From positions 22,625-86,624 of the IMG/VR virus record IMGVR_UViG_3300026735_000021: a stretch of DNA of 64,000 nucleotides; one strand, given 5' to 3'. Source of the stretch: a virus (Duplodnaviria > Caudoviricetes). Shown here one piece after another: positions 8,650-54,315 of this stretch (the stretch's first letter is position 1; every line of letters starts with the position of its first letter). The translations under genes were made by a program, and so were the position numbers. Under the pieces are notes generated by a model. That model saw only the letters and a list, made by a program, of their open reading frames with translations. It searched no databases and had not been told where the DNA came from.

Positions 8650-9348
8650 ATGCCACTACCTTTATTAAAAGATACACTACCTTCAAACTGGAGCATTGAG
8701 CCAATGCCATCGCTATTGGCTACTCCTGAATTCATCAATTTCAACAAAACATTGATGGCATTAGAAGCTCAAAATAAACTTAGCCCTGGATACAATGACA
8801 TCTTTAAAGCATTGAATCTGACATCACCTAATGATGTAAAAGTTGTTATATTGGGGCAAGACCCATACCCTCGTGAAAATGATGCGATGGGATTAAGTTT
8901 CTCAGTGAATCCAACCCAACCAATTCCTCGTTCATTAAAAAACATTTACAAAGAATTGGTTGACGATGTTGGTATTGATAATACAACCAAAACAGGTGAT
9001 CTGTCATACTGGGCTAAACAAGGTGTACTATTATTAAATACAACACTCACAACAGAAACAACAAAAACAAATGCCCATCGAAATAAAGGCTGGGAAGAAT
9101 TCACAACAGCTATTATTCAATATTTGAATAATAATGCCACATCTGAAAAACCTATCGTATTTATTCTTTGGGGTAATGCTGCTAAAGAAAAAGGATTCCT
9201 TTTGTCAAACCCTAACGTCTATAAGATCGAATCTCCCCATCCTAGCCCATTCTCAGCTCGAACAGGGTTCTTTGGAAGCAAACCCTTCAGTCAAACCAAC
9301 ATGTTCTTAGAAAGCCATTCAATGGATCCTATTGATTGGAGTGTATAA
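8650..9348 (+). CDS. ung: Uracil-DNA glycosylase, family 1
   Basis: VVILGQDPY, GLSFSV, WAKQGVLLLN, FILWG, HPSPFS motifs. Confidence 0.97.
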   Translation: MPLPLLKDTLPSNWSIEPMPSLLATPEFINFNKTLMALEAQNKLSPGYNDIFKALNLTSPNDVKVVILGQDPYPRENDAMGLSFSVNPTQPIPRSLKNIYKELVDDVGIDNTTKTGDLSYWAKQGVLLLNTTLTTETTKTNAHRNKGWEEFTTAIIQYLNNNATSEKPIVFILWGNAAKEKGFLLSNPNVYKIESPHPSPFSARTGFFGSKPFSQTNMFLESHSMDPIDWSV

Positions 9349-46342: not shown

Positions 46343-47668
46343 TTAATCAATTTGAATTTTTCTATTATAGGTTGATGCTACGGCTGCGTCGAATCGACCG
46401 CCAGCAATATCAGACCATGAATCTAACGAAACAAGCCATTTAACAAAGGCATCTGTCACTTCATATTTAAGTGTACGATCCGTATTTTCATCCATTCCAT
46501 TAATTTTAGAATTTGCATCACGAGACGCAGCATCCAATTCATCAATTTCATCAGAATTAAGACCAGTTAAACTTCTAATAAAAACTTCATTTTGATCGCT
46601 ATAAAGTTCACCAGTATCTTTGTTATATCGAAATTTAGTATCATTTTTAAAGTATTGCTCTGTATCTTGATATGCTTCACTCAACACACGATACAATTCA
46701 CCCGATAATTGGCCGGCTTCATTAACAAACATTGATTTAGACAACAGTCCTTTTGCATATATTTTAATTTCATTTTTAAGAACATTCTGTTTCAATTTAT
46801 CAACTTCATCTAATAATTCATTATTAGGAACTGAACTTTCAACAAGATCTTGACCCCTACGCTCAGCTAGTTCCTCGGCCGCTACTTGTGCTTGAATATA
46901 TTCATCCTCTGAATTGAAACCAGAGTCTCGCCAAACTTCTTGATTATGATCAGATTTATACAAGAAATCATTAATGGCATTCATTAAATCATCACTTAAT
47001 ACATCCGGGTCTAATTGATCCATATGATGTTCTGTATAATCATAAACTGACATATATGTTGTTCTTACTGTGTCAACCATTTTTGCTTGTTCCAATCGTT
47101 TATCCAACATAGCATAGAAGTTTGGTTGATTTTGTCTCACATCAAAATCTTTAGCCAATGACAAAGTAGGAACTGTTTGTAATGAATACTTCTTACGAGG
47201 GTCACGAATTGTATTTCCAAGCAAAGCATAACTCATTGCCAATACTGTTTCATTCCTATTCCACACAGGTGAAACCCCTGCTCTAAGAACAACACTATTC
47301 CGAGGTGGAATGAACAGCAAATCATTGAATGATATAACTGGGCGTTCTTTTGTTGACATTGTATAAGATATACGTCCCTCATTTTTATTTAAGATACGTT
47401 CATTATCACGAGTGATTGTTTTAGATTCAATCAATGATTCATGAGTTTGTCCTGACAACTTAACCAATGTATCTAACATTGAGTCATCTGTTGATTTCAA
47501 GAAAACAATAGAGGCATTACCTTGAATAATTTTATCAACACTATCCCCGTAAACGTCCCGTAATTGTTGTAATGTTTGTAATATAAGTGTAAATTGTTGA
47601 TCTTGACCCAGCCCAATACTTAACATTGTTTGTAATGCTGGGATACCATGACCCTCATTTTGTAAGTT
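46343..47668 (-). CDS. virD4: VirD4/TraG coupling protein, exon 4
   Basis: Begins NLQNEGHGIPALQTMLSIGLGQDQQFTLILQTLQQL, continuing the Walker B MLDELG of exon 3; ORF-track prefix MLRTSETTNKKKT is intron sequence. Confidence 0.88.
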   Translation of the reverse strand, partial: NLQNEGHGIPALQTMLSIGLGQDQQFTLILQTLQQLRDVYGDSVDKIIQGNASIVFLKSTDDSMLDTLVKLSGQTHESLIESKTITRDNERILNKNEGRISYTMSTKERPVISFNDLLFIPPRNSVVLRAGVSPVWNRNETVLAMSYALLGNTIRDPRKKYSLQTVPTLSLAKDFDVRQNQPNFYAMLDKRLEQAKMVDTVRTTYMSVYDYTEHHMDQLDPDVLSDDLMNAINDFLYKSDHNQEVWRDSGFNSEDEYIQAQVAAEELAERRGQDLVESSVPNNELLDEVDKLKQNVLKNEIKIYAKGLLSKSMFVNEAGQLSGELYRVLSEAYQDTEQYFKNDTKFRYNKDTGELYSDQNEVFIRSLTGLNSDEIDELDAASRDANSKINGMDENTDRTLKYEVTDAFVKWLVSLDSWSDIAGGRFDAAVASTYNRKIQID

Positions 47669-49625
47669 CGTTTTTTTTTTATTTGTCGTTTCACTTGTTC
47701 GTAACACAAGCTCTATGTTAATTCATAGCACCCTCATTACAAGGCGTTAACCAGACTATATGTCAAGGTCTACTACTTTCGTAGCGATTCCCCCATCTAT
47801 TTTTCGCGCACGTCATATACTTACGTCGCTAACGGAGACGCCATCTCCTAGTCGTTAGAGGTTATACCTAAAACATTAGGCATAAGTCCTACCCGAACAT
47901 GCTCTTTTTACTAATTAAAGTACATCAACTTAGCAACACTATTAATGTTTTTTTATTTCAGCATATTGACATCTTACTTATTTCTTTCAGGTTTCCCAGC
48001 ATTCACGCTCATTGTTACCAATCACGTTGTAGCAAAGTAAGCTCTTAAAGCACTTCCGCGGGTTTAATTGATGTAAAGGTACGCACACATTACATATACG
48101 CAGGGCACTTACTTCAATTAAGAGTTTCTTATTATTTATTCAAAAATTTTATTTCCAATCATGTCTAATGGGGCATCCATCACTAATCCAACGTTTGGCA
48201 TCATTGAGATTACAATCCCATAATACAACATAATTCAAATTATTGGCACGAGCCATAGTTCGTTTGGTCACATCAGACCCCGTCCAAATATCAACATATC
48301 GATCATATAATGGTGTATGTTTTGATTTTAAATAATCAACTTTAGTCAAATCTTCATCAGATTCAGGATCAAACCATTTCCCACCATGTAACCATGTAGC
48401 ATTTAATTCAATAAATAAATCTAAAGATTTAATATAAAAATCGCAATTAAATGGGTATCGTTTATCTAAACGATGTTGTGTCATCACATCATCTTGCCCA
48501 AAATAATTAACAAGCATTTTACCTAATAATTGTTCAGGTTTTGATGTATTCATTGTGCCATTCATCTTTTTAGTATTCTGTATCTTCATAATAGTCTCTT
48601 CTGAACCAAGACAACTTCGTCCGATACTACTACTAGCCCAATGTTCTGATCCATATCTAATCAAACATGTTGATTTTCGTTTATTCATATATTCTTCTGA
48701 ATAAAACACACGCTTAGCATCATTACTCGTTTGCCATAATTGTGAACCATATCTAATCATATTTGTTGCTTTAGTTTTAGCTACAACTTCATCCGCTGAT
48801 AATAATTGTTTCAATCGAACTCTAGCTTCAGCTGATTGCCAATAATAAGGTACACCATATCGTTTCATTGATGTTTCTTTATATTTACGTTGAACATCTG
48901 CTGACAACATGCGTTCACTTCTCAGTTGTCGTTCTTCTGGCGTATTAAATATATGATTTAAATATTCTTTGCCTTCAGTGCTTTGCGTCCAATGATTTGC
49001 TCCATGATTTTTTAAAGATGTAGCTCTATATTTGGCTCGAGCGTCATCAGATTTAATTCCATCTGACATTTTTTTCCGCACATCGTCAGAACCTAATATT
49101 TCAACGAGTTTTTCTTTACCTATATCACTCTCTGCCCACGTTTTAGACCCATATTTTTCAATATTTGTATTCATCGCTTTAGCTCGAGATTTTTTAGACC
49201 AAGGTCCCTCGTTATTTTCTTTCAACATGCGAGCATTATCACTACCAGCCCATGACTCACTACCATATTTGTCATTATTTGTTTTACGTCGTTTTGCTAA
49301 TACTTCATCCGACTTAATGCGTTCACTTTGTTGTTTACGACGTTCAGGTGTCCAATAATTAGCTACATTTTCTTTTGCACAAATTTTGCAATAACCACCC
49401 TGTAAATGATATCCAGGTGTTATTTCAAAATCACCATGAATAGAACAAATAACAATAACTTTAGTAGCATTATTAATATAGTCTACTTTGGAATAATCAT
49501 AATTATATTTTTCAATTATTCCTTTATCTTTGAGTTTTTGAATAAATAAGTTAAGTTTACTTAATTTTTGTTCAGTCATAATATGTATTTCCTTTTCGGT
49601 TTATACTTATATTATAACATAATCA
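47669..49625 (-). mobile_element. Group I intron (intron 3 of virD4) with homing endonuclease in the P1 loop
   Basis: P-like GAATGCTGGGAAACC, R TCTAACGACTAG (47847..47859), S GACATATAGTCT (47753..47764), terminal G at 47669; IGS GTAAGTGCCCTG (48101..48112) pairs with both exons; 5' boundary uncertain by 1 nt. Confidence 0.88.
48149..49579 (-). CDS. Intron-encoded homing endonuclease, PD-(D/E)xK/Vsr-like (EDxHD-type)
   Basis: N-terminal CSIHG...CKIC module, ~40-aa repeats (KT...KYGxxxW), C-terminal CDFYIKSLDLFIELN...HGGKWFD. Confidence 0.8.
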   Translation of the reverse strand: MTEQKLSKLNLFIQKLKDKGIIEKYNYDYSKVDYINNATKVIVICSIHGDFEITPGYHLQGGYCKICAKENVANYWTPERRKQQSERIKSDEVLAKRRKTNNDKYGSESWAGSDNARMLKENNEGPWSKKSRAKAMNTNIEKYGSKTWAESDIGKEKLVEILGSDDVRKKMSDGIKSDDARAKYRATSLKNHGANHWTQSTEGKEYLNHIFNTPEERQLRSERMLSADVQRKYKETSMKRYGVPYYWQSAEARVRLKQLLSADEVVAKTKATNMIRYGSQLWQTSNDAKRVFYSEEYMNKRKSTCLIRYGSEHWASSSIGRSCLGSEETIMKIQNTKKMNGTMNTSKPEQLLGKMLVNYFGQDDVMTQHRLDKRYPFNCDFYIKSLDLFIELNATWLHGGKWFDPESDEDLTKVDYLKSKHTPLYDRYVDIWTGSDVTKRTMARANNLNYVVLWDCNLNDAKRWISDGCPIRHDWK

Positions 49626-49626
49626 A

Positions 49627-50457
49627 CCCCAATTCATCAAGCATATACTTAGTTTTGTAAAGAGGCTTTTGTGACTCTTTTACAATATAAGATAAGTCGA
49701 CATTTGAATCGAATGTTTGTTTGATAAGAATCAATATCAATTTAGCATATGTCATCAAATGTGGTGGTGTAATCATAAATACAATTTTTGGTTTTTCTGT
49801 GTATTTTACAGTGCTTTGGCTAAACGCTGGCACTTTAACAATCTTTTCAACAGAACCACCCTCACGAATGTTACGATATTTACGATTAACCATTGTTTGT
49901 TGATAAATGTAGTTTCCAGAACGCGTTTTATGCATTTCACGTAAAACTCCGTCCTTGATAATTTTATTACCCAATACAGGATCTTTGACATAAGATTTAC
50001 CATCAAGGTCGGTTTTATATGTGAGTTCCAATTCAAAATAGAAAGTTTTTATCAACAGTTCTGTTTCTGGATTTCGAATTTCCAGTTTAACATAGGCTTT
50101 TTTACTTTTAGATGTATCAAATTTACCATCAAAGTAATATCTAGCCCAACCTGTTCTATCAATAAGTTGACTGTGATCAAATTGATCGGATTTAGGTCTA
50201 ACGTCCGTCAACTCACCATCACGGTCATAAATCTTACCATCAACTTCTACGTAGCCGTCATTTAACAAACGTCTACTAAAGTTTTTATCTTCATATGCTG
50301 ACCATACAGCTTGCGTTCCAAACATTTTATATCGAGACTCATACTCAGGTGCAAACCTAACTCCTAATCGACGAGGAAATGATAATCCTGCCGCATCGAA
50401 ATTTTGAGACGGTTTACCTGATGTAAGCGTTGATATTGTTGGATCTGTGAAAAAACT
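49627..50457 (-). CDS. virD4: VirD4/TraG coupling protein, exon 3
   Basis: Begins SFFTDPTISTLTSG, ends Walker B KYMLDELG; contains IVFMITPPH; ORF-track prefix MSDKWHQNVTYRN is intron domain VI. Confidence 0.85.
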
Positions 50458-51114
50458 ATTACGATAGGTAACATTTTGATGCCATTTATCTGACAAACTT
50501 TTATATGTTTCATGTCGTTTTCATGACAGCTCCACGTTTTCCCCCGTACCACACCGTGCATGCGACTTTCACCGCACACGGCGTTCCCTCAATATGTATA
50601 AATTAAAAATTATACATATTGACTTGTGACCATCACTTCTTCGTCCATTACAGACGCTATCATTATTTCGATCACTACTTTTCAGCACAAATTCATCTGC
50701 TTATTGTTCTTCGTCAGACTACTGTTCGCTTTGTACCTTTCCACGTTCCAATTGATTTATCGTACATAATATACTTAGGTGCTTTCTATACTTGAGCATT
50801 ACATCATACACCTTTAATGTATCAAGGTTTTTCTACGCAATGACAATACTAAACCTCATAATATTCAAGTTTTAAATCGAAAGTTCGTCCAACTATTGTT
50901 ATACTCACCATATATATTGACGCCCGCCCTATCTAATTTTCATTATTCAGGCGACTTTACCGAGCTTCGAACATATAATGTTTCCATTTAATGCACGTCG
51001 GAGATTAGCGTAAACGCTTCAGATCGTTACATCTTCATTTCGTTTATCAATCAATTAGTTCTCCATGAGAATATTCTCATGTGTAAACACTTTTCATGTT
51101 CAAACGTGTCGCAC
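50458..51114 (-). mobile_element. ORF-less group II intron (intron 2 of virD4), 657 nt
   Basis: Starts GTGCG after GCA ATG; domain V ACGCCGTGTGCGGTGAAAGTCGCATGCACGGTGT; ends TACCTATCGTAAT (AY); removal gives in-frame TAM|SFF. Confidence 0.92.
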
Positions 51115-51840
51115 CATTGCAGTTAATGCAATTCCATATACTGACGCTATGGTTTTATCTGAACCAGCCATTGCACGTAATGCGCTGTCAGCATTATTTA
51201 CTAGATTTCTCATACTATTCTTAGGCAACTTAGCTGTTGCATCAAAGAATAATGTCAAGAAGTCTTTTTCTTCTACTACTTCGTCAGCATCAATTTTGAT
51301 TTTTGACTCATCCGTAGATTTTTTCGCAGATAATAATACAAACAATTGATATGCATTATATAACGTTACTTTACCCCAAAGATCGCCGATACGTTGGTTG
51401 AGCACTTTAGGATCAACTCCTGCCTGCTCAGCTTCACGTCTCATTTGTTTTTCTTCTTCGAGGTAGAAATCGATCAAGCCAAACGCCGAACGCTTAAACG
51501 CGTTGTTCGCGGCATTTGGCCACATTGGATCATCCGCTCCTTCTTTGGGGAAGAAAATGTCACCAATGTTTTCAACGTAACTTGCTGCTTTTGTGAAGTC
51601 CCCTTCACGTGCGGCATCAGCCGCATAACCCAATGGATTGTAAATGTCAGTTTTAGATGCATTAATCAAATTAAACTGAACAACTTCATATCCACGTACG
51701 GTTGCAGGTATAAAAAATTTAACCAATAACTCCCCTTTAGGGTCGTTAATTATGATATTGTCTTGTCGTTTCTGACGAGTCCACATATCAATTGTAGGTT
51801 CAATTACTGTTTGGCCCTTCCCAGCTCGAGTTATGGCTAA
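51115..51840 (-). CDS. virD4: VirD4/TraG coupling protein, exon 2
   Basis: LAITRAGKGQT (Walker A), IINDPKGEL, FNL......YNPL, DPMW. Confidence 0.9.
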
Positions 51841-51929
51841 CTTAAGGCTGGGAACGAGTTCGTCGCGATTCTTAACTCCGAACCCTATATATACTTTCAT
51901 ATATAAAGACTATGTGTTAATCAAAAATG

Positions 51930-52940
51930 TTAATATGTGTTTTCTTTATGATCTTTTAGAAAACATTCAGTGTTGCAATCATAATCATAGAACCATACAT
52001 TAAAATCTCTCAATTTTGGTTCATATATTTTTTTATTAGAAATTTGTCCATCCCAGAAAACTAAATAATTTAAATTATTTGATTTAGCTACATTTTTCTT
52101 TTCAATATCAGAATATCTCCAATTGTTTGCAGCTTTTTCCAATGATCCACCTTTTGACACCCAATTATCATAAAACTCTAAATCATTAGGGTCATTACTA
52201 TCAAACCATCGATCATTATGGCTATAAAAGCCATTCATTTCAATGAATAAATCATTAGATTTAATATAAAAATCACAATCATAAGGATATCTATCATCTA
52301 ATGGATATCGTCCATAATGTATTTTCACATCATCTATTCCAAATTTGGAAATCAACTTTTTATATACATATAATTCAAATTGAGATAGTAGTTTTTTACT
52401 TAACAAATTATCATAATTATTAGATTCATTGCTTAATTCCAATTCAGTCATAAACAATTCATGTTTTGTTTTCAATGATTTATTTAACGCCTCAGGATTA
52501 GCCAAGCCAACACCACCATATTTTTCGGTCTGAGTTTCTCTAATCTTAAACAATCGTGCTTCTTCAGATAATTTTTTAAACTCAGTTTCACCTAATAGTT
52601 TTTTAAGTGTTGGAATTGCTCGTTTACCTAAAAACAAACAATTAAACAACTCAAAGCCATCCCATCTAGCATCATTCATTAAATGATCATGCATATACTC
52701 AGAAATAATAGCTCGTTGCTCCTCTTTGCTGTAATGCTCATTGATATATTTAATTTGAGTGTCAGGTATATCCTCAGGTTTGATTTCATTTAAACCATAT
52801 TGAACTCTTTTCTTATTTAAACCTCTCAACATGATTTTATGATCTTTTTGAAGATTTGACCATCCCATTAAATATTTATGACTAATATCATTAATTTCGT
52901 TCAAATCTAATGCTTCTAATTTATGATTTACAGTTACCAT
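51930..52940 (-). CDS. Intron-encoded homing endonuclease, PD-(D/E)xK/Vsr-like
   Basis: RYPYDCDFYIKSNDLFIEMNG..SH..RWFD, homologous to the C-terminus of 48149..49579. Confidence 0.8.
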   Translation of the reverse strand: MVTVNHKLEALDLNEINDISHKYLMGWSNLQKDHKIMLRGLNKKRVQYGLNEIKPEDIPDTQIKYINEHYSKEEQRAIISEYMHDHLMNDARWDGFELFNCLFLGKRAIPTLKKLLGETEFKKLSEEARLFKIRETQTEKYGGVGLANPEALNKSLKTKHELFMTELELSNESNNYDNLLSKKLLSQFELYVYKKLISKFGIDDVKIHYGRYPLDDRYPYDCDFYIKSNDLFIEMNGFYSHNDRWFDSNDPNDLEFYDNWVSKGGSLEKAANNWRYSDIEKKNVAKSNNLNYLVFWDGQISNKKIYEPKLRDFNVWFYDYDCNTECFLKDHKENTY

Positions 52941-52973
52941 TTATATTTACCTCGGTTTCGTTCTTATATATTA

Positions 52974-53002
52974 ATTATAACACCCAAACGAGCTCGAGTC
53001 AA
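52974..53002 (-). promoter_or_regulatory. Internal sigma70-type promoter for the intron 1 endonuclease
   Basis: TTGACT-17-TATAAT with TG extension. Confidence 0.75.
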
Positions 53003-53364
53003 GCATTTTAGTTGAATATCGATGCTTTTTTTTTCATTTTTGATCCTGGATTTTTCTTCTTTATAAGTCAGGTCATAACATATAAAGCTTTACATTAAGG
53101 ACTAAAGTCCGCCTTCGCAAAAGGCTAGTCGTTGAACGTCTCCCTTATTATAAAATTATAACTTAGGGCTTTCGCTGCTAAACATCCATTTATATGACGT
53201 TTTAGGATTTAACCCTGCGTCATCTCAATATTTTTTTCTACTTTCGTTACGTAACTTTCGTTCAGCTTATCGTTTCCAATTACTGTTTCCGTATATTGAG
53301 CTTTAGGAATTCCTAGCAATAAACACAGAGTACGTGCATGTCACCATACACGCAGTGCTAACCA

Positions 53365-54315
53365 CACCATTGTATTAATAGCATCTGTTTCAACCAAGTA
53401 GGCACCTGATGGGCGCTGTACTTCGTAATCGGGAATTTCCCAATCTTGATTGATCAAATCAGCTACGCCATCGTATTTTTGTTTTTCCCTATTAGGTCTT
53501 TTTCCTTTTTTATCAGCTTGATTATAAGGAATTTTTGACACATCAAATGGTTCTCTAATTTCTTTAGCATCATCAGGGATACCACTGGCTGTCATTAAAT
53601 CTTGCCCAAATTGTTCATCAATAATTGGCATCATTTTAGAGACAGGATTACCATCTAGGTCTAAGATAGCTTCACCCTCATAAACTCTATCAACAAATTT
53701 TTCACCAGTATCTTCATCAATAAATTCCATATTTTTAGATTCTGAATACCGTTGAGTAAACGGAACCTTTTTAAGACCTTTATTTGACAAATTAATATGG
53801 CTAATCATCATTGTAGGATTTACGCTTGAATGAGCGCCCACATCAGGGAAATAATCAAATGTACGAATAGCTTCATCTGGTAACATGATATACTGGTCAT
53901 TCATATGTGGATTAATATCAGTAGTGTCATTCATTGAATTTTCACTACGCCAATTTGCCATCATTCTATTGTATAAGATTCCCCATACCATAAAGCCTAT
54001 AAGGACACTTGAGCCCCATGCTTTCCATGATGATAATCCATTATTAATATTGAATGCAACTCCAGCTACACTATTACCTCGTGACAATTGAAGCACAATA
54101 TCAGCAATTCCCATTAAAATCGAAATTAAAAATACGGATCCAATTGTAACTATGATTGACACTATTATAGATAATATTCTACGTGCTTTTGGACTCGTTT
54201 TCTGGCCTTGTTTACCCCGTTCCAATGACTGTGAATTATACACATCACGGTTTGCCGGTGTATCAGTAAACGATCGACCTTTAACGATGTCCCAATTTGA
54301 CTTTTTATTTTTCAA
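53365..54315 (-). CDS. virD4: VirD4/TraG coupling protein, exon 1 (two N-terminal TM helices)
   Basis: Two TM segments, ends YLVETDAINTMV which joins LAITRAGKG of exon 2; TTG start with RBS GAGG. Confidence 0.85.

What the first reader, a model, noticed from the sequence alone, without database searches (positions are those of the whole stretch)
47660..53370. Both group I introns are exactly one nucleotide out of frame under canonical splicing
Intron 1: P1 places the U.G pair at ATG GTG U| and the terminal G precedes TTA GCC, so canonical ligation gives GTG T TTA (+1, early stop). Intron 3: U.G at TTG GGG U| and G|AAC again gives +1. In both, P10 pairs perfectly only from the second nucleotide after the terminal G (GGTTA:TAGCC; GTAAGT:ACTTAC), so the guide sequence matches a product lacking one junction nucleotide. 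The P7 G-binding pair looks intact. Possible explanations: 5' cleavage one base before the U.G, a 3' site one base after the G (intron 3 would then yield G-Y-L rather than G-N-L), or two independent base-call errors (CCCC at 49627-49630, AA at 51839-51840). Errors seem less likely given the long intact ORFs elsewhere.
Basis: partly seen in the sequence, partly recalled or inferred. Interest (0 to 1): 0.75.

Follow-up and report, generated by a model that had tools for sequence, protein, structure and literature searches.

The report
Group I introns that splice after G
Two self-splicing group I introns in a DNA-transfer (VirD4/TraG-type) gene look one base out of frame only because they belong to a rare, already published kind of group I ribozyme that cuts its 5' end after a G, one base before the textbook U-G landmark, so the gene is intact.

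Summary
With textbook group I boundaries (exon ends with the U of the U.G pair, intron ends with G), both introns leave one extra U and the coupling-protein frame stops at codon 331 or 837. It is not a base-call error. Contigs from three independent DNA studies carry the same junction letters.

The inserted unit is U...G placed after an exon G. Removing exactly that unit gives a 1277-aa ORF that matches intron-less homologues residue for residue (NTMV|LAITRAGKGQT, DELG|NLQ). Six further introns show the same layout: two in contig L006, and one each in L025 and a Parvibacter genome, plus two in cultured Staphylococcus phage PMBT8 (one of them ambiguous). Six related introns are canonical and in frame.

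A contig from an RNA library joins GGGG directly to AACUUAC.

This 5' shift is published. Group B (IS607-type) IStron ribozymes splice after G, and the U is their first base (PMC4227781; 10.1101/2023.11.20.567912).

The 3'-shift and error options are rejected.

This scan had already met the same habit on other DNA.

Verdict: new members of a known, rare kind.

The parts
53365..54315 (-). Exon 1 of the VirD4/TraG-type coupling protein gene. It ends ...AAU ACA AUG GUG.
   Evidence: ORF. Intron-less homologues L003-L005 read NTMV|LAITRAGKGQT. A DNA contig of run X2 follows exon 1 up to 53365 and then continues CTCGCG..., an allele without intron 1 (table 7).
51841..53364 (-). Intron 1, a 1524-nt group I (IA2-like) intron of the G|U type. 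Its parts are: first base U 53364, P10 guide GGUUA 53363-53359, IGS G 53358, IGS CACUG 53357-53353, P2 about 53352-53333, candidate P7 GACUA 53130-53126 with UAGUC 51912-51908, and omega-G 51841.
   Evidence: Sequence. Its 5' 240 nt match group I introns of Staphylococcus and Enterococcus phages (E down to 7e-24). L025 and PMBT8 introns share the P1/P2 design.
51930..52940 (-). Intron-1 ORF of 336 aa, a putative homing endonuclease, lying between P7 and P7'.
   Evidence: ORF. No Pfam hit. Its C-terminal part resembles the intron-3 ORF (YP.dCDFYIKS.DLFIE). An 80% identical 70-nt DNA stretch links the two ORFs.
51115..51840 (-). Exon 2. It starts UUA GCC AUA ACU (LAITRAGKGQT, Walker A) and ends ...ACU GCA AUG.
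   Evidence: Pfam PF02534, homologue alignments and the model test.
50458..51114 (-). Intron 2, an ORF-less group II intron of 657 nt (GUGCG...AU). It is not part of the frame problem.
   Evidence: Rfam RF02004 at 106.8 bits and RF00029 at 57.8 bits. The junction AUG|AGU is in frame and matches homologues (AM|SFFTDPT). The joined form appears in an X19 contig.
49627..50457 (-). Exon 3. It ends ...GAU GAA UUG GGG (DELG, Walker B region).
47669..49626 (-). Intron 3, a 1958-nt group I (IA2) intron of the G|U type with its ORF inside the P1 loop. Its parts are: first base U 49626, P10 guide GUAAGU 48112-48107, IGS G 48106, IGS CCCUG 48105-48101, P3 CAUC 48073-48070 with GAUG 47797-47794, the P4-P5 motif at 48032-48003, P7 GACUA 47853-47849 with UAGUC 47758-47754, and omega-G 47669.
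   Evidence: Sequence. There is an exact match to a 30-nt P4-P5 pattern shared by 33 viral-contig loci, with 0 matches expected by chance. RNAalifold against the L006 copy gives 104 pairs, 28 of them compensatory, including P3, P7.1, P7.2, P8, P9.1 and P9.2. An X19 contig skips exactly 47669-49626 (table 5).
48149..49579 (-). Intron-3 ORF of 476 aa, a putative homing endonuclease.
   Evidence: ORF. Pfam DUF7487, E 6.4e-7. An ORF-less version of the intron (48134-49583 replaced by 27 nt) exists in run X19 (tables 5 and 5c).
46343..47668 (-). Exon 4. It starts AAC UUA CAA (NLQNEGHGI...) and holds the TraG-D_C domain.
   Evidence: Pfam PF12696 and PF02534.

Best explanation
Both introns are genuine group I (IA2-type) ribozymes of the rare 'G|U' kind.

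The mobile unit begins with its own U, which forms the U.G wobble with the internal guide sequence (IGS), and it ends with omega-G. The 5' splice site lies one phosphodiester upstream of that wobble. It follows an exon G that pairs with the C next to the IGS G.

Exon ligation after omega-G then removes exactly U...G and restores the coupling-protein frame: GUG|UUA = V-L and GGG|AAC = G-N.

In the ligated product the 5' exon pairs with the 3' part of the IGS. The first 3'-exon base sits opposite the IGS G, in the place of the intron's U. P10 starts at the second 3'-exon base. The whole P1/P10 duplex is therefore read one base pair out of the textbook register.

Shown here: the boundaries at DNA level, their recurrence, and a matching joined contig from an RNA library. 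Taken from the literature: related ribozymes really do splice this way. Inferred: the register-shift geometry and self-splicing of these two copies.
For: 1. Only the U...G boundaries give an open 1277-aa frame whose junction peptides equal those of intron-less homologues (NTMVLAITRAGKGQT, DELGNLQ). Canonical joining stops at aa 331.

2. The same layout holds in six other introns in four further records (PMBT8 D/E is ambiguous; see the Against line).
- L006a: ACUCGAG|U...AAUG|CAGGA, giving RAGKG.
- L006b: GACGAG|U...AAUG|CUUGGU, giving DELGNL.
- L025, an RNA-polymerase beta-like gene: GGUG|U...AUGG|UAUACGG, giving NMCGV|YGRENGGQ.
- A Parvibacter genome, orthologous gene at another site, with the same IGS as intron 3: UUGGGG|U...UAAAG|CAAGAG, giving SIGLG|QEQQ.
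- Cultured Staphylococcus phage PMBT8, major tail protein: ACGGAG|U...UUUG|CCUCCU. Intron-less phage SEP9 reads NTE|PPYAG.
- PMBT8 D/E: CAAAGAG|U...AAUUG|GUACAGG.

3. Controls. Six related or neighbouring introns are canonical and in frame by the same method: Staphylococcus phage vB_Sau_CG against SA5, L003, and L021/L034, L031, L028 and L020.

4. Structural correlate. In canonical relatives at least 2 bp follow the U.G pair. In all G|U members the U.G pair closes the P1 loop, and P10 pairs from base +2 (5, 6, 5, 4, 4, 3 and 2 bp, and 0 in L006a) but hardly at all from base +1 (0-1 bp).

5. Run X19, recorded as RNA, holds a relative at 92-95% identity. One contig joins 47668 directly to 49627 (GGGG|AAC) and also skips the group II intron. 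Unspliced and joined contigs share the same four exon-2 SNPs, so they come from one strain. An ORF-less intron 3 is also present at lower depth.

6. Independent DNA assemblies carry the same junction letters.

7. Published experiments. [quoted passage not shown] CboIStron splices without a scar after a TGGG motif, in cells and in vitro (10.1101/2023.11.20.567912).
Against: No RNA of this exact element was examined.

The X19 contigs come from a relative, and contigs cannot fully exclude an intron-less sub-population or DNA carried over into the library.

For intron 1, L025 and PMBT8 D/E the base after omega-G makes two readings indistinguishable or both in frame.

Rfam's group I model gives no hit at E up to 10, so class assignment rests on homology and covariation.

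The core of intron 1 (P3, P8) was not mapped by covariation.

How a group I active site selects the phosphate 5' of the wobble U is not understood, even for IStrons.
Confidence: 0.85

Rival explanations
1. The 5' cleavage is canonical, after the U of the U.G pair, and the 3' splice site lies one base after the terminal G. The junction base is thereby replaced by U (intron 3 would give G-Y-L).
For: P10 pairs perfectly from the second 3'-exon base, so U.G plus P10 would form an uninterrupted textbook guide duplex. The product is in frame (model B). For intron 1 the product is identical to that of the preferred model.
Against: It changes conserved residues in three of four informative cases: N to Y in DELGNL, A to V in RAGKG and L to F in DELG. 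Removing U...G restores the consensus residue every time.

The last intron base would then be U, A or C, or G in the ambiguous PMBT8 D/E case. That does not fit a guanosine-binding site.

The X19 joint is 47668 to 49627, not 47667 to 49626.

BcISt1 cDNA lacks the U (PMC4227781).
Confidence: 0.04
2. The introns splice canonically (U| and G|), the mRNA carries an extra U at each junction, and the coupling-protein gene is inactive, so the insertions are tolerated.
For: This is what textbook rules predict. Such a gene could be dispensable for an element in some settings.
Against: All four exons remain open and conserved, at 37-56% identity to relatives and without stops.

The same layout occurs in an RNA-polymerase gene (L025) and in the major tail protein gene of a viable cultured phage (PMBT8), where a frameshift would be lethal.

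The base kept after omega-G always rebuilds the consensus codon.

The joined contig in X19 lacks the U.
Confidence: 0.04
3. There are two independent homopolymer base-call or assembly errors (CCCC at 49627-49630, AA at 51839-51840). The true sequence would splice canonically in frame.
For: Both sites lie in short homopolymers, and the contig is a metagenome assembly.
Against: Contigs from independent studies cover these places and show no indel there (tables 4 and 8). X2, X4 and X7 cover the intron 3 junctions. X4 and X7 cover the intron 1 junctions.

The same extra base is seen in L006 (twice), L025, L047 and the finished genome of phage PMBT8.

For intron 3, deleting one exon G would also weaken P1 and leave P10 out of register.
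Confidence: 0.01
4. Canonical splicing uses other nearby sites that happen to be in frame and shorten the protein. An example for intron 1 is GUGU| joined to UUAG|CC, giving V-S-I-T instead of V-L-A-I-T.
For: Such a pairing of a U and a G exists for intron 1. A similar one exists in L025 (UGU| joined to AUG|GUA, which loses one Gly).
Against: It deletes residues of the strand before the Walker A loop that all homologues keep. The retained UUA GCC encodes exactly the consensus L-A, in frame.

P10 does not pair at that site.

No such alternative exists for intron 3, short of deleting NLQNEG, or for L006, L047 or PMBT8 E/F.
Confidence: 0.03

Closest known systems
Ribozymes of group B (IS607-type) IStrons: BcISt1 (Bacillus cereus), CbISt1-4 / CboIStron (Clostridium botulinum), LsISt1 and others (Tourasse et al. 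2014, PMC4227781; Zedaveinyte et al. preprint 10.1101/2023.11.20.567912)
   Same: They have an IA2-type core. The 5' exon ends in G, at GG-type targets such as AGGG and TGGG; intron 3 and the Parvibacter copy sit after UUGGGG. The U of the U-G pair is the first base of the element. The U-G pair is directly followed by a loop. The element ends in G. Exon joining is scarless.
   Different: The introns here have no IS607 TnpA or TnpB and no omega-RNA. They carry a putative homing endonuclease ORF, in the P1 loop or between P7 and P7', or no ORF at all (L006, L025, L047). Their 3' ends are AAG and ACG rather than CGG. No DNA similarity to anything in the plasmid collection was found, and direct sequence kinship to a group B IStron was not tested.
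Turicibacter sanguinis group IA2 intron with a GG-ending homing site (mentioned in PMC4227781)
   Same: It is a plain group I intron, not an IStron, that resembles group B ribozymes and sits after GGAGG.
   Different: It is only mentioned in the paper and no splicing data were given. Its sequence was not compared here.
Canonical IA2 introns of Herelleviridae and other Bacillota phages (Twort orf142 type; here vB_Sau_CG tail tube, L021, L028, L031, L020)
   Same: They share the P3-P6 sequence (72-83% identity over 75-235 nt), have the same P7.1/P7.2 architecture and often carry endonuclease ORFs.
   Different: Their 5' exon ends with the U of the U.G pair. At least 2 bp of P1 follow the wobble. 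P10 starts at the first 3'-exon base. They are in frame under textbook rules.

Membership tests
Group I intron (subclass IA2) | A P1 helix between the 5' exon end and an internal guide sequence, with a U.G wobble | tested here: met
   UGGUGU:GCACUG in intron 1 and UGGGGU:GCCCUG in intron 3. The pair at -2 covaries across members (U-A, G-C, A-U in L006 and PMBT8). U.G is invariant in all eight G|U copies.
Group I intron (subclass IA2) | The last exon nucleotide is the U of the U.G pair (the textbook 5' splice site) | tested here: not met
   The frame and the intron-less homologues require the exon to end at the preceding G. This is the known exception described for group B IStrons.
Group I intron (subclass IA2) | A terminal guanosine (omega-G) at the 3' splice site | tested here: met
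   G at 51841 and 47669. All eight G|U copies end in G.
Group I intron (subclass IA2) | Core topology P3-P4-P6 / P7-P7.1-P7.2-P3'-P8-P7' followed by an extended P9 | tested here: met
   Intron 3 against the L006 copy gives 28 compensatory pairs. P3 CAUC/GAUG covaries with CACC/GGUG. P7.1, P7.2, P8, P9.1 and P9.2 hairpins are present.

Intron 1 has P2, the P4-P6 homology and a GACUA/UAGUC candidate P7, but its P3 and P8 were not verified.
Group I intron (subclass IA2) | A match to the curated family model (Rfam RF00028) | tested here: inconclusive
   There is no hit at E up to 10, in the window or in the ORF-less L006 copy. That search was not run on the canonical relatives, so its sensitivity for this lineage is unknown.
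Group I intron (subclass IA2) | Guanosine-dependent self-splicing | not testable with these tools
   The only support is an RNA-library contig of a relative with the exact exon-exon joint.
Group B IStron | The 5' exon ends in G, the first element base is U, and the U-G pair is followed by a loop | tested here: met
   The criteria are those given in PMC4227781.
Group B IStron | It carries an IS607-type serine recombinase (ORF A) and/or TnpB (ORF B) downstream of P9.2 | tested here: not met
   The ORFs are DUF7487 or unassigned endonuclease-like proteins lying in the P1 loop or the P7-P7' region. There is no transposase.
Group B IStron | A long AU-rich inverted-repeat stem and a CGG 3' terminus | tested here: not met
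   The 3' ends are ...CCUUAAG and ...AAAAAACG. No long AU-rich inverted-repeat stem was seen, and none was searched for systematically.

The most novel reading that the evidence does not exclude
The one-base 5' shift is not a peculiarity of transposon-linked IStrons. It is a heritable trait of a wider clade of IA2 introns that carry homing endonucleases or no ORF at all, in phages, conjugative elements and bacteria.

In this clade the whole P1/P10 guide duplex docks one base pair out of register. The 3' exon's first base takes the place of the intron's own U opposite the IGS G. Because the intron brings its own U, it can colonise targets that lack a U. Intron 3 and the Parvibacter copy sit at two different UUGGGG sites of one gene family, and the two L006 copies sit at two CGAG sites.
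Probability: 0.6. Interest if true: 0.5.

Novelty: new member of a known kind. Interest (0 to 1): 0.4.

Why it matters
For annotation: genes split by such introns will be called frameshifted or pseudogenes if textbook U|...G| rules are applied. Here a 1277-aa coupling protein would be lost. The same would happen to the RNA-polymerase gene in L025 and the tail-tube gene in PMBT8.

For ribozyme biology: the examples collected here, eight G|U introns set against six canonical ones, most of them related, add non-IStron cases to a splice-site shift documented experimentally only for IStrons. They confirm the published correlation with a U.G pair that closes the P1 loop. They add a second regularity, P10 starting at 3'-exon base +2, which argues for a register shift of both chemical steps rather than a miscut at the 5' side only. 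That gives a concrete, testable model for a question the 2014 paper left open.

Tried and rejected
- Rfam, at gathering and E-value thresholds, found the group II intron but no group I model hit, even on the ORF-less L006 copy. This is not informative for this lineage.
- Megablast and tblastn of the locus against the phage collection found nothing useful.
- blastn of the intron 3 core against plasmids found no match, so kinship to plasmid-borne IStrons could not be shown.
- The pattern AAATAGRTGGGGGAATCGC gave one chance hit in a GC-rich coding region (L008), which was discarded.
- An apparent similarity between the intron 3 3' end and the region after the vB_Sau_CG intron turned out to be exon sequence.
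- A covariance model of the P3-P6 region was prepared (alignment A1) but not built, because the exact pattern match and the BLAST hits already placed both introns.
- An automatic classification of all 33 pattern loci was not completed. Only those with recognisable exon motifs were judged. L024 and L029 have unclear P1 helices and were left unclassified.
- Parts of the stretch lack cover in X2 (52314-53174) and in X19 (most of both endonuclease ORFs). No conclusion is drawn from those gaps.
- Ribosomal frameshifting or RNA editing as a rescue was considered and dropped. Nothing supports either, and the joined contig lacks the U.


Full report
**What is there.**
The window is part of an 86.6-kb record of the viral-contig collection. 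Other readers of this scan regard the element as plasmid-like, with a relaxase and a transfer region.

On the minus strand, between 54315 and 46343, lies one VirD4/TraG-type coupling protein gene (Pfam PF02534 and PF12696). It is cut into four exons by three introns:
- Intron 1 is 53364-51841.
- Intron 2 is an ORF-less group II intron at 51114-50458 (Rfam 106.8 and 57.8 bits).
- Intron 3 is 49626-47669.

Introns 1 and 3 each carry an endonuclease-like ORF. They are related to each other in P1, P2 and the P4-P6 region.

**Checking the observation.**
Intron-less orthologues in three viral contigs read NTMV|LAITRAGKGQT and MLDELG|NLQ/NLE across the two sites (L003-L005). The mRNA must therefore read GUG^UUAGCC and GGG^AACUUA.

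They are UGGUGU:GCACUG and UGGGGU:GCCCUG, with the IGS of intron 3 lying behind the ORF at 48106-48101.

- With the exon ending at the wobble U and the intron ending at the last G, each junction keeps one extra U. The frame stops at codon 331, or at codon 837 if only intron 3 is read canonically.
- With the U assigned to the intron, a 1277-aa frame opens whose junction peptides equal those of the homologues.
- P10 pairs from the second 3'-exon base (5 and 6 bp) and not from the first (1 bp).

**Not an error.**
Logan contigs of three independent DNA studies (food fermentation X2, X4; dairy X7) cover the junctions. They show substitutions elsewhere but no insertion or deletion at any of the four junctions (tables 3, 4 and 8).

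These runs also show that intron content varies between strains. X2 lacks intron 1: its exon 1 runs up to GTG and then continues CTCGCGATTACG... It appears to carry a different insert about 25 nt downstream.

**The unit is U...G, and it recurs.**
The orthologous gene of contig L006 contains two near-identical ORF-less copies (about 430 nt) of the intron 3 lineage, at two other sites:
- ACUCGAG|U...AAUG|CAGGAAAAGG, giving R-A-G-K-G.
- GACGAG|U...AAUG|CUUGGUAAC, giving D-E-L-G-N-L.

L025 carries an intron with the same IGS as intron 1, in an RNA-polymerase beta-like gene: GGUG|U AAAUUAAAGUAU GCACUG...AUAUGG|UAUACGG, giving NMCGV|YGRENGGQ.

A Parvibacter genome has the orthologous coupling-protein gene with an intron of the intron 3 lineage at yet another site: UUGGGG|U UCUU GCCCUG...GUAAAG|CAAGAG, giving SIGLG|QEQQ.

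Cultured Staphylococcus phage PMBT8 has its major tail protein gene shredded by introns. Two of them have the intron 1 design. The clearest is ACGGAG|U AUAAG GCUCUG...CAAUUUG|CCUCCU, and intron-less phage SEP9 reads NTE|PPYAG at this point.

In every case the following hold:
- The exon base before the U is G, paired with the C that follows the IGS G.
- The first intron base is U and the last is G.
- Removing U...G rebuilds the consensus codon.
- Textbook joining gives +1.

**Controls.**
The same reasoning gives in-frame textbook junctions for six other introns:
- Staphylococcus phage vB_Sau_CG tail tube, against intron-less SA5: AAU|...GUG|AAC.
- L003: CCU|...UAG|CUU.
- L021/L034: IHSP|SRVM.
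- L031.
- L028: PD|FHSNIA.
- L020: RYG-YQCWDL.

The method therefore does not manufacture frameshifts. In these canonical relatives at least two base pairs follow the U.G pair and P10 starts at +1. In the G|U introns the U.G pair closes the P1 loop and P10 starts at +2 (5, 6, 5, 4, 4, 3 and 2 bp, and none in L006a).

**RNA-level hint.**
Run X19 is recorded as an RNA-seq library and holds a relative at 92-95% identity. One contig (depth 13) lies on exon 4 up to 47668 and continues at 49627. It thus skips exactly 47669-49626, with a one-letter c/c ambiguity that does not change the product, and it reads GGGG|AACUUAC. The same contig runs from 50457 straight into exon 2 sequence, which is the predicted group II junction AUG|AGU.

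A second contig spans the intron 2-exon 2 boundary unspliced. It carries the same four exon-2 SNPs as the joined contig, so both forms come from one strain. An ORF-less intron 3 is present at lower depth.

This is what spliced and unspliced RNA would look like. It is not proof, because contigs cannot exclude a mixed population or DNA in the library. At site 1 the X19 form equals the intron-less DNA allele of X2 and says nothing about splicing.

**Known precedent.**
Notes from earlier reports of this scan pointed me to the IStron literature, which I then read.

Tourasse, Stabell and Kolsto (2014, PMC4227781) report that group B (IS607-type) IStrons have IA2 ribozymes inserted after GG-ending sites. 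[quoted passage not shown] Sequenced RT-PCR products of BcISt1 lack the U, while a full-length intron circle contains it. They also mention a plain Turicibacter group I intron at a GG-ending site.

The Sternberg laboratory preprint shows scarless splicing of CboIStron after a TGGG motif, in cells and in vitro.

**How it most likely works.**
- Shown: the boundaries, the P1 and P10 pairings, and the correlation with a P1 that lacks an extension.
- From the literature: ribozymes of this design cut after the G.
- Inferred: both transesterifications act one base pair 'lower' on the guide duplex than in textbook introns.

In the precursor the intron's U occupies the IGS G. After the first step that U leaves with the intron 5' end. 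In the second step the first 3'-exon base (U, A, C or G in different members) lies opposite the IGS G, and bases +2 onward form P10. The ligated exons then make an uninterrupted duplex with the guide.

Because the intron supplies its own U, the target needs only ...G plus a few complementary bases. This fits the L006 pair at two CGAG sites. It also fits intron 3 and the Parvibacter copy, which lie at two different UUGGGG sites of the same gene family.

**Membership.**
Both introns are group I introns by P1/IGS covariation, by omega-G and by homology to phage IA2 introns. For intron 3 there is also a covariation-supported P3/P7.1/P7.2/P8/P9 core.

They fail the textbook 5' splice-site rule in the same way as group B IStrons. 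They are not IStrons, because they have no transposase or TnpB and different 3' ends.

**Verdict.**
This is a real and correctly observed anomaly, explained by a rare but published splice-site shift. The gene is intact.

New here are further non-IStron members, among them introns that carry homing-endonuclease ORFs in a conjugative-type gene, and the P10 register regularity.

The scan has met the same habit before on other DNA (e1-5868505, e1-5753885, e1-1935105).

Noticed in passing
window 50458-51114 (-): This is an ORF-less group II intron of 657 nt (GUGCG...AU) in the same gene. Its junction AUG|AGU is in frame. In the X19 RNA library its region has much higher depth than the exons, and a joined contig skips it.
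   Followed up: partly
window 47730-47734 (-) and L006 about 8765-8770: An internal AGGGU (GAGU in L006), lying between P7' and P9.1, is complementary to the IGS (GCCCU; GCUC in L006) and covaries with it. It mimics the 5' exon plus U. It could be an alternative pairing that sequesters the guide, or it could be chance, since only two sequences are available.
   Followed up: no
L044/L046 (Staphylococcus phage PMBT8, MK893987, about 8.9-12.6 kb): The major tail protein gene is split by at least five group I introns into mini-exons as short as about 5-14 codons, and several introns carry endonuclease ORFs. The record annotates the pieces as hypothetical proteins.
   Followed up: partly
L006 8996-10000: The orthologous coupling protein of contig IMGVR_UViG_3300045988_182396 also carries an in-frame insert of about 1 kb at ...IQGNA|...HN|TSN with LAGLIDADG-like motifs. 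It is probably an intein, so this gene has two G|U introns plus an intein.
   Followed up: no
window 51813-53365, run X2: Intron content differs between strains. X2 lacks intron 1: exon 1 continues CTCGCGATTACGCGCGCAGGTAAGGG. It then has unrelated sequence with a short match to the intron-1 ORF, which suggests a different intron about 25 nt downstream. Exon codons next to the sites differ synonymously (CTC GCG against TTA GCC), as expected from co-conversion.
   Followed up: partly
window 48149-49579 and 51930-52940 (-): The two intron ORFs share a C-terminal nuclease-like region (YP..CDFYIKS.DLFIE...W) but sit at different places in the ribozyme, one in the P1 loop and one between P7 and P7'. 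Only the larger one hits a Pfam family (DUF7487).
   Followed up: no
L010 (Fusobacterium phage Fnu1, MK554696, about 32.6-34.4 kb): A P3-P6 segment 73% identical to the L006 intron lies just upstream of a gene annotated as a transposase. This looks like an IStron in a phage genome.
   Followed up: no
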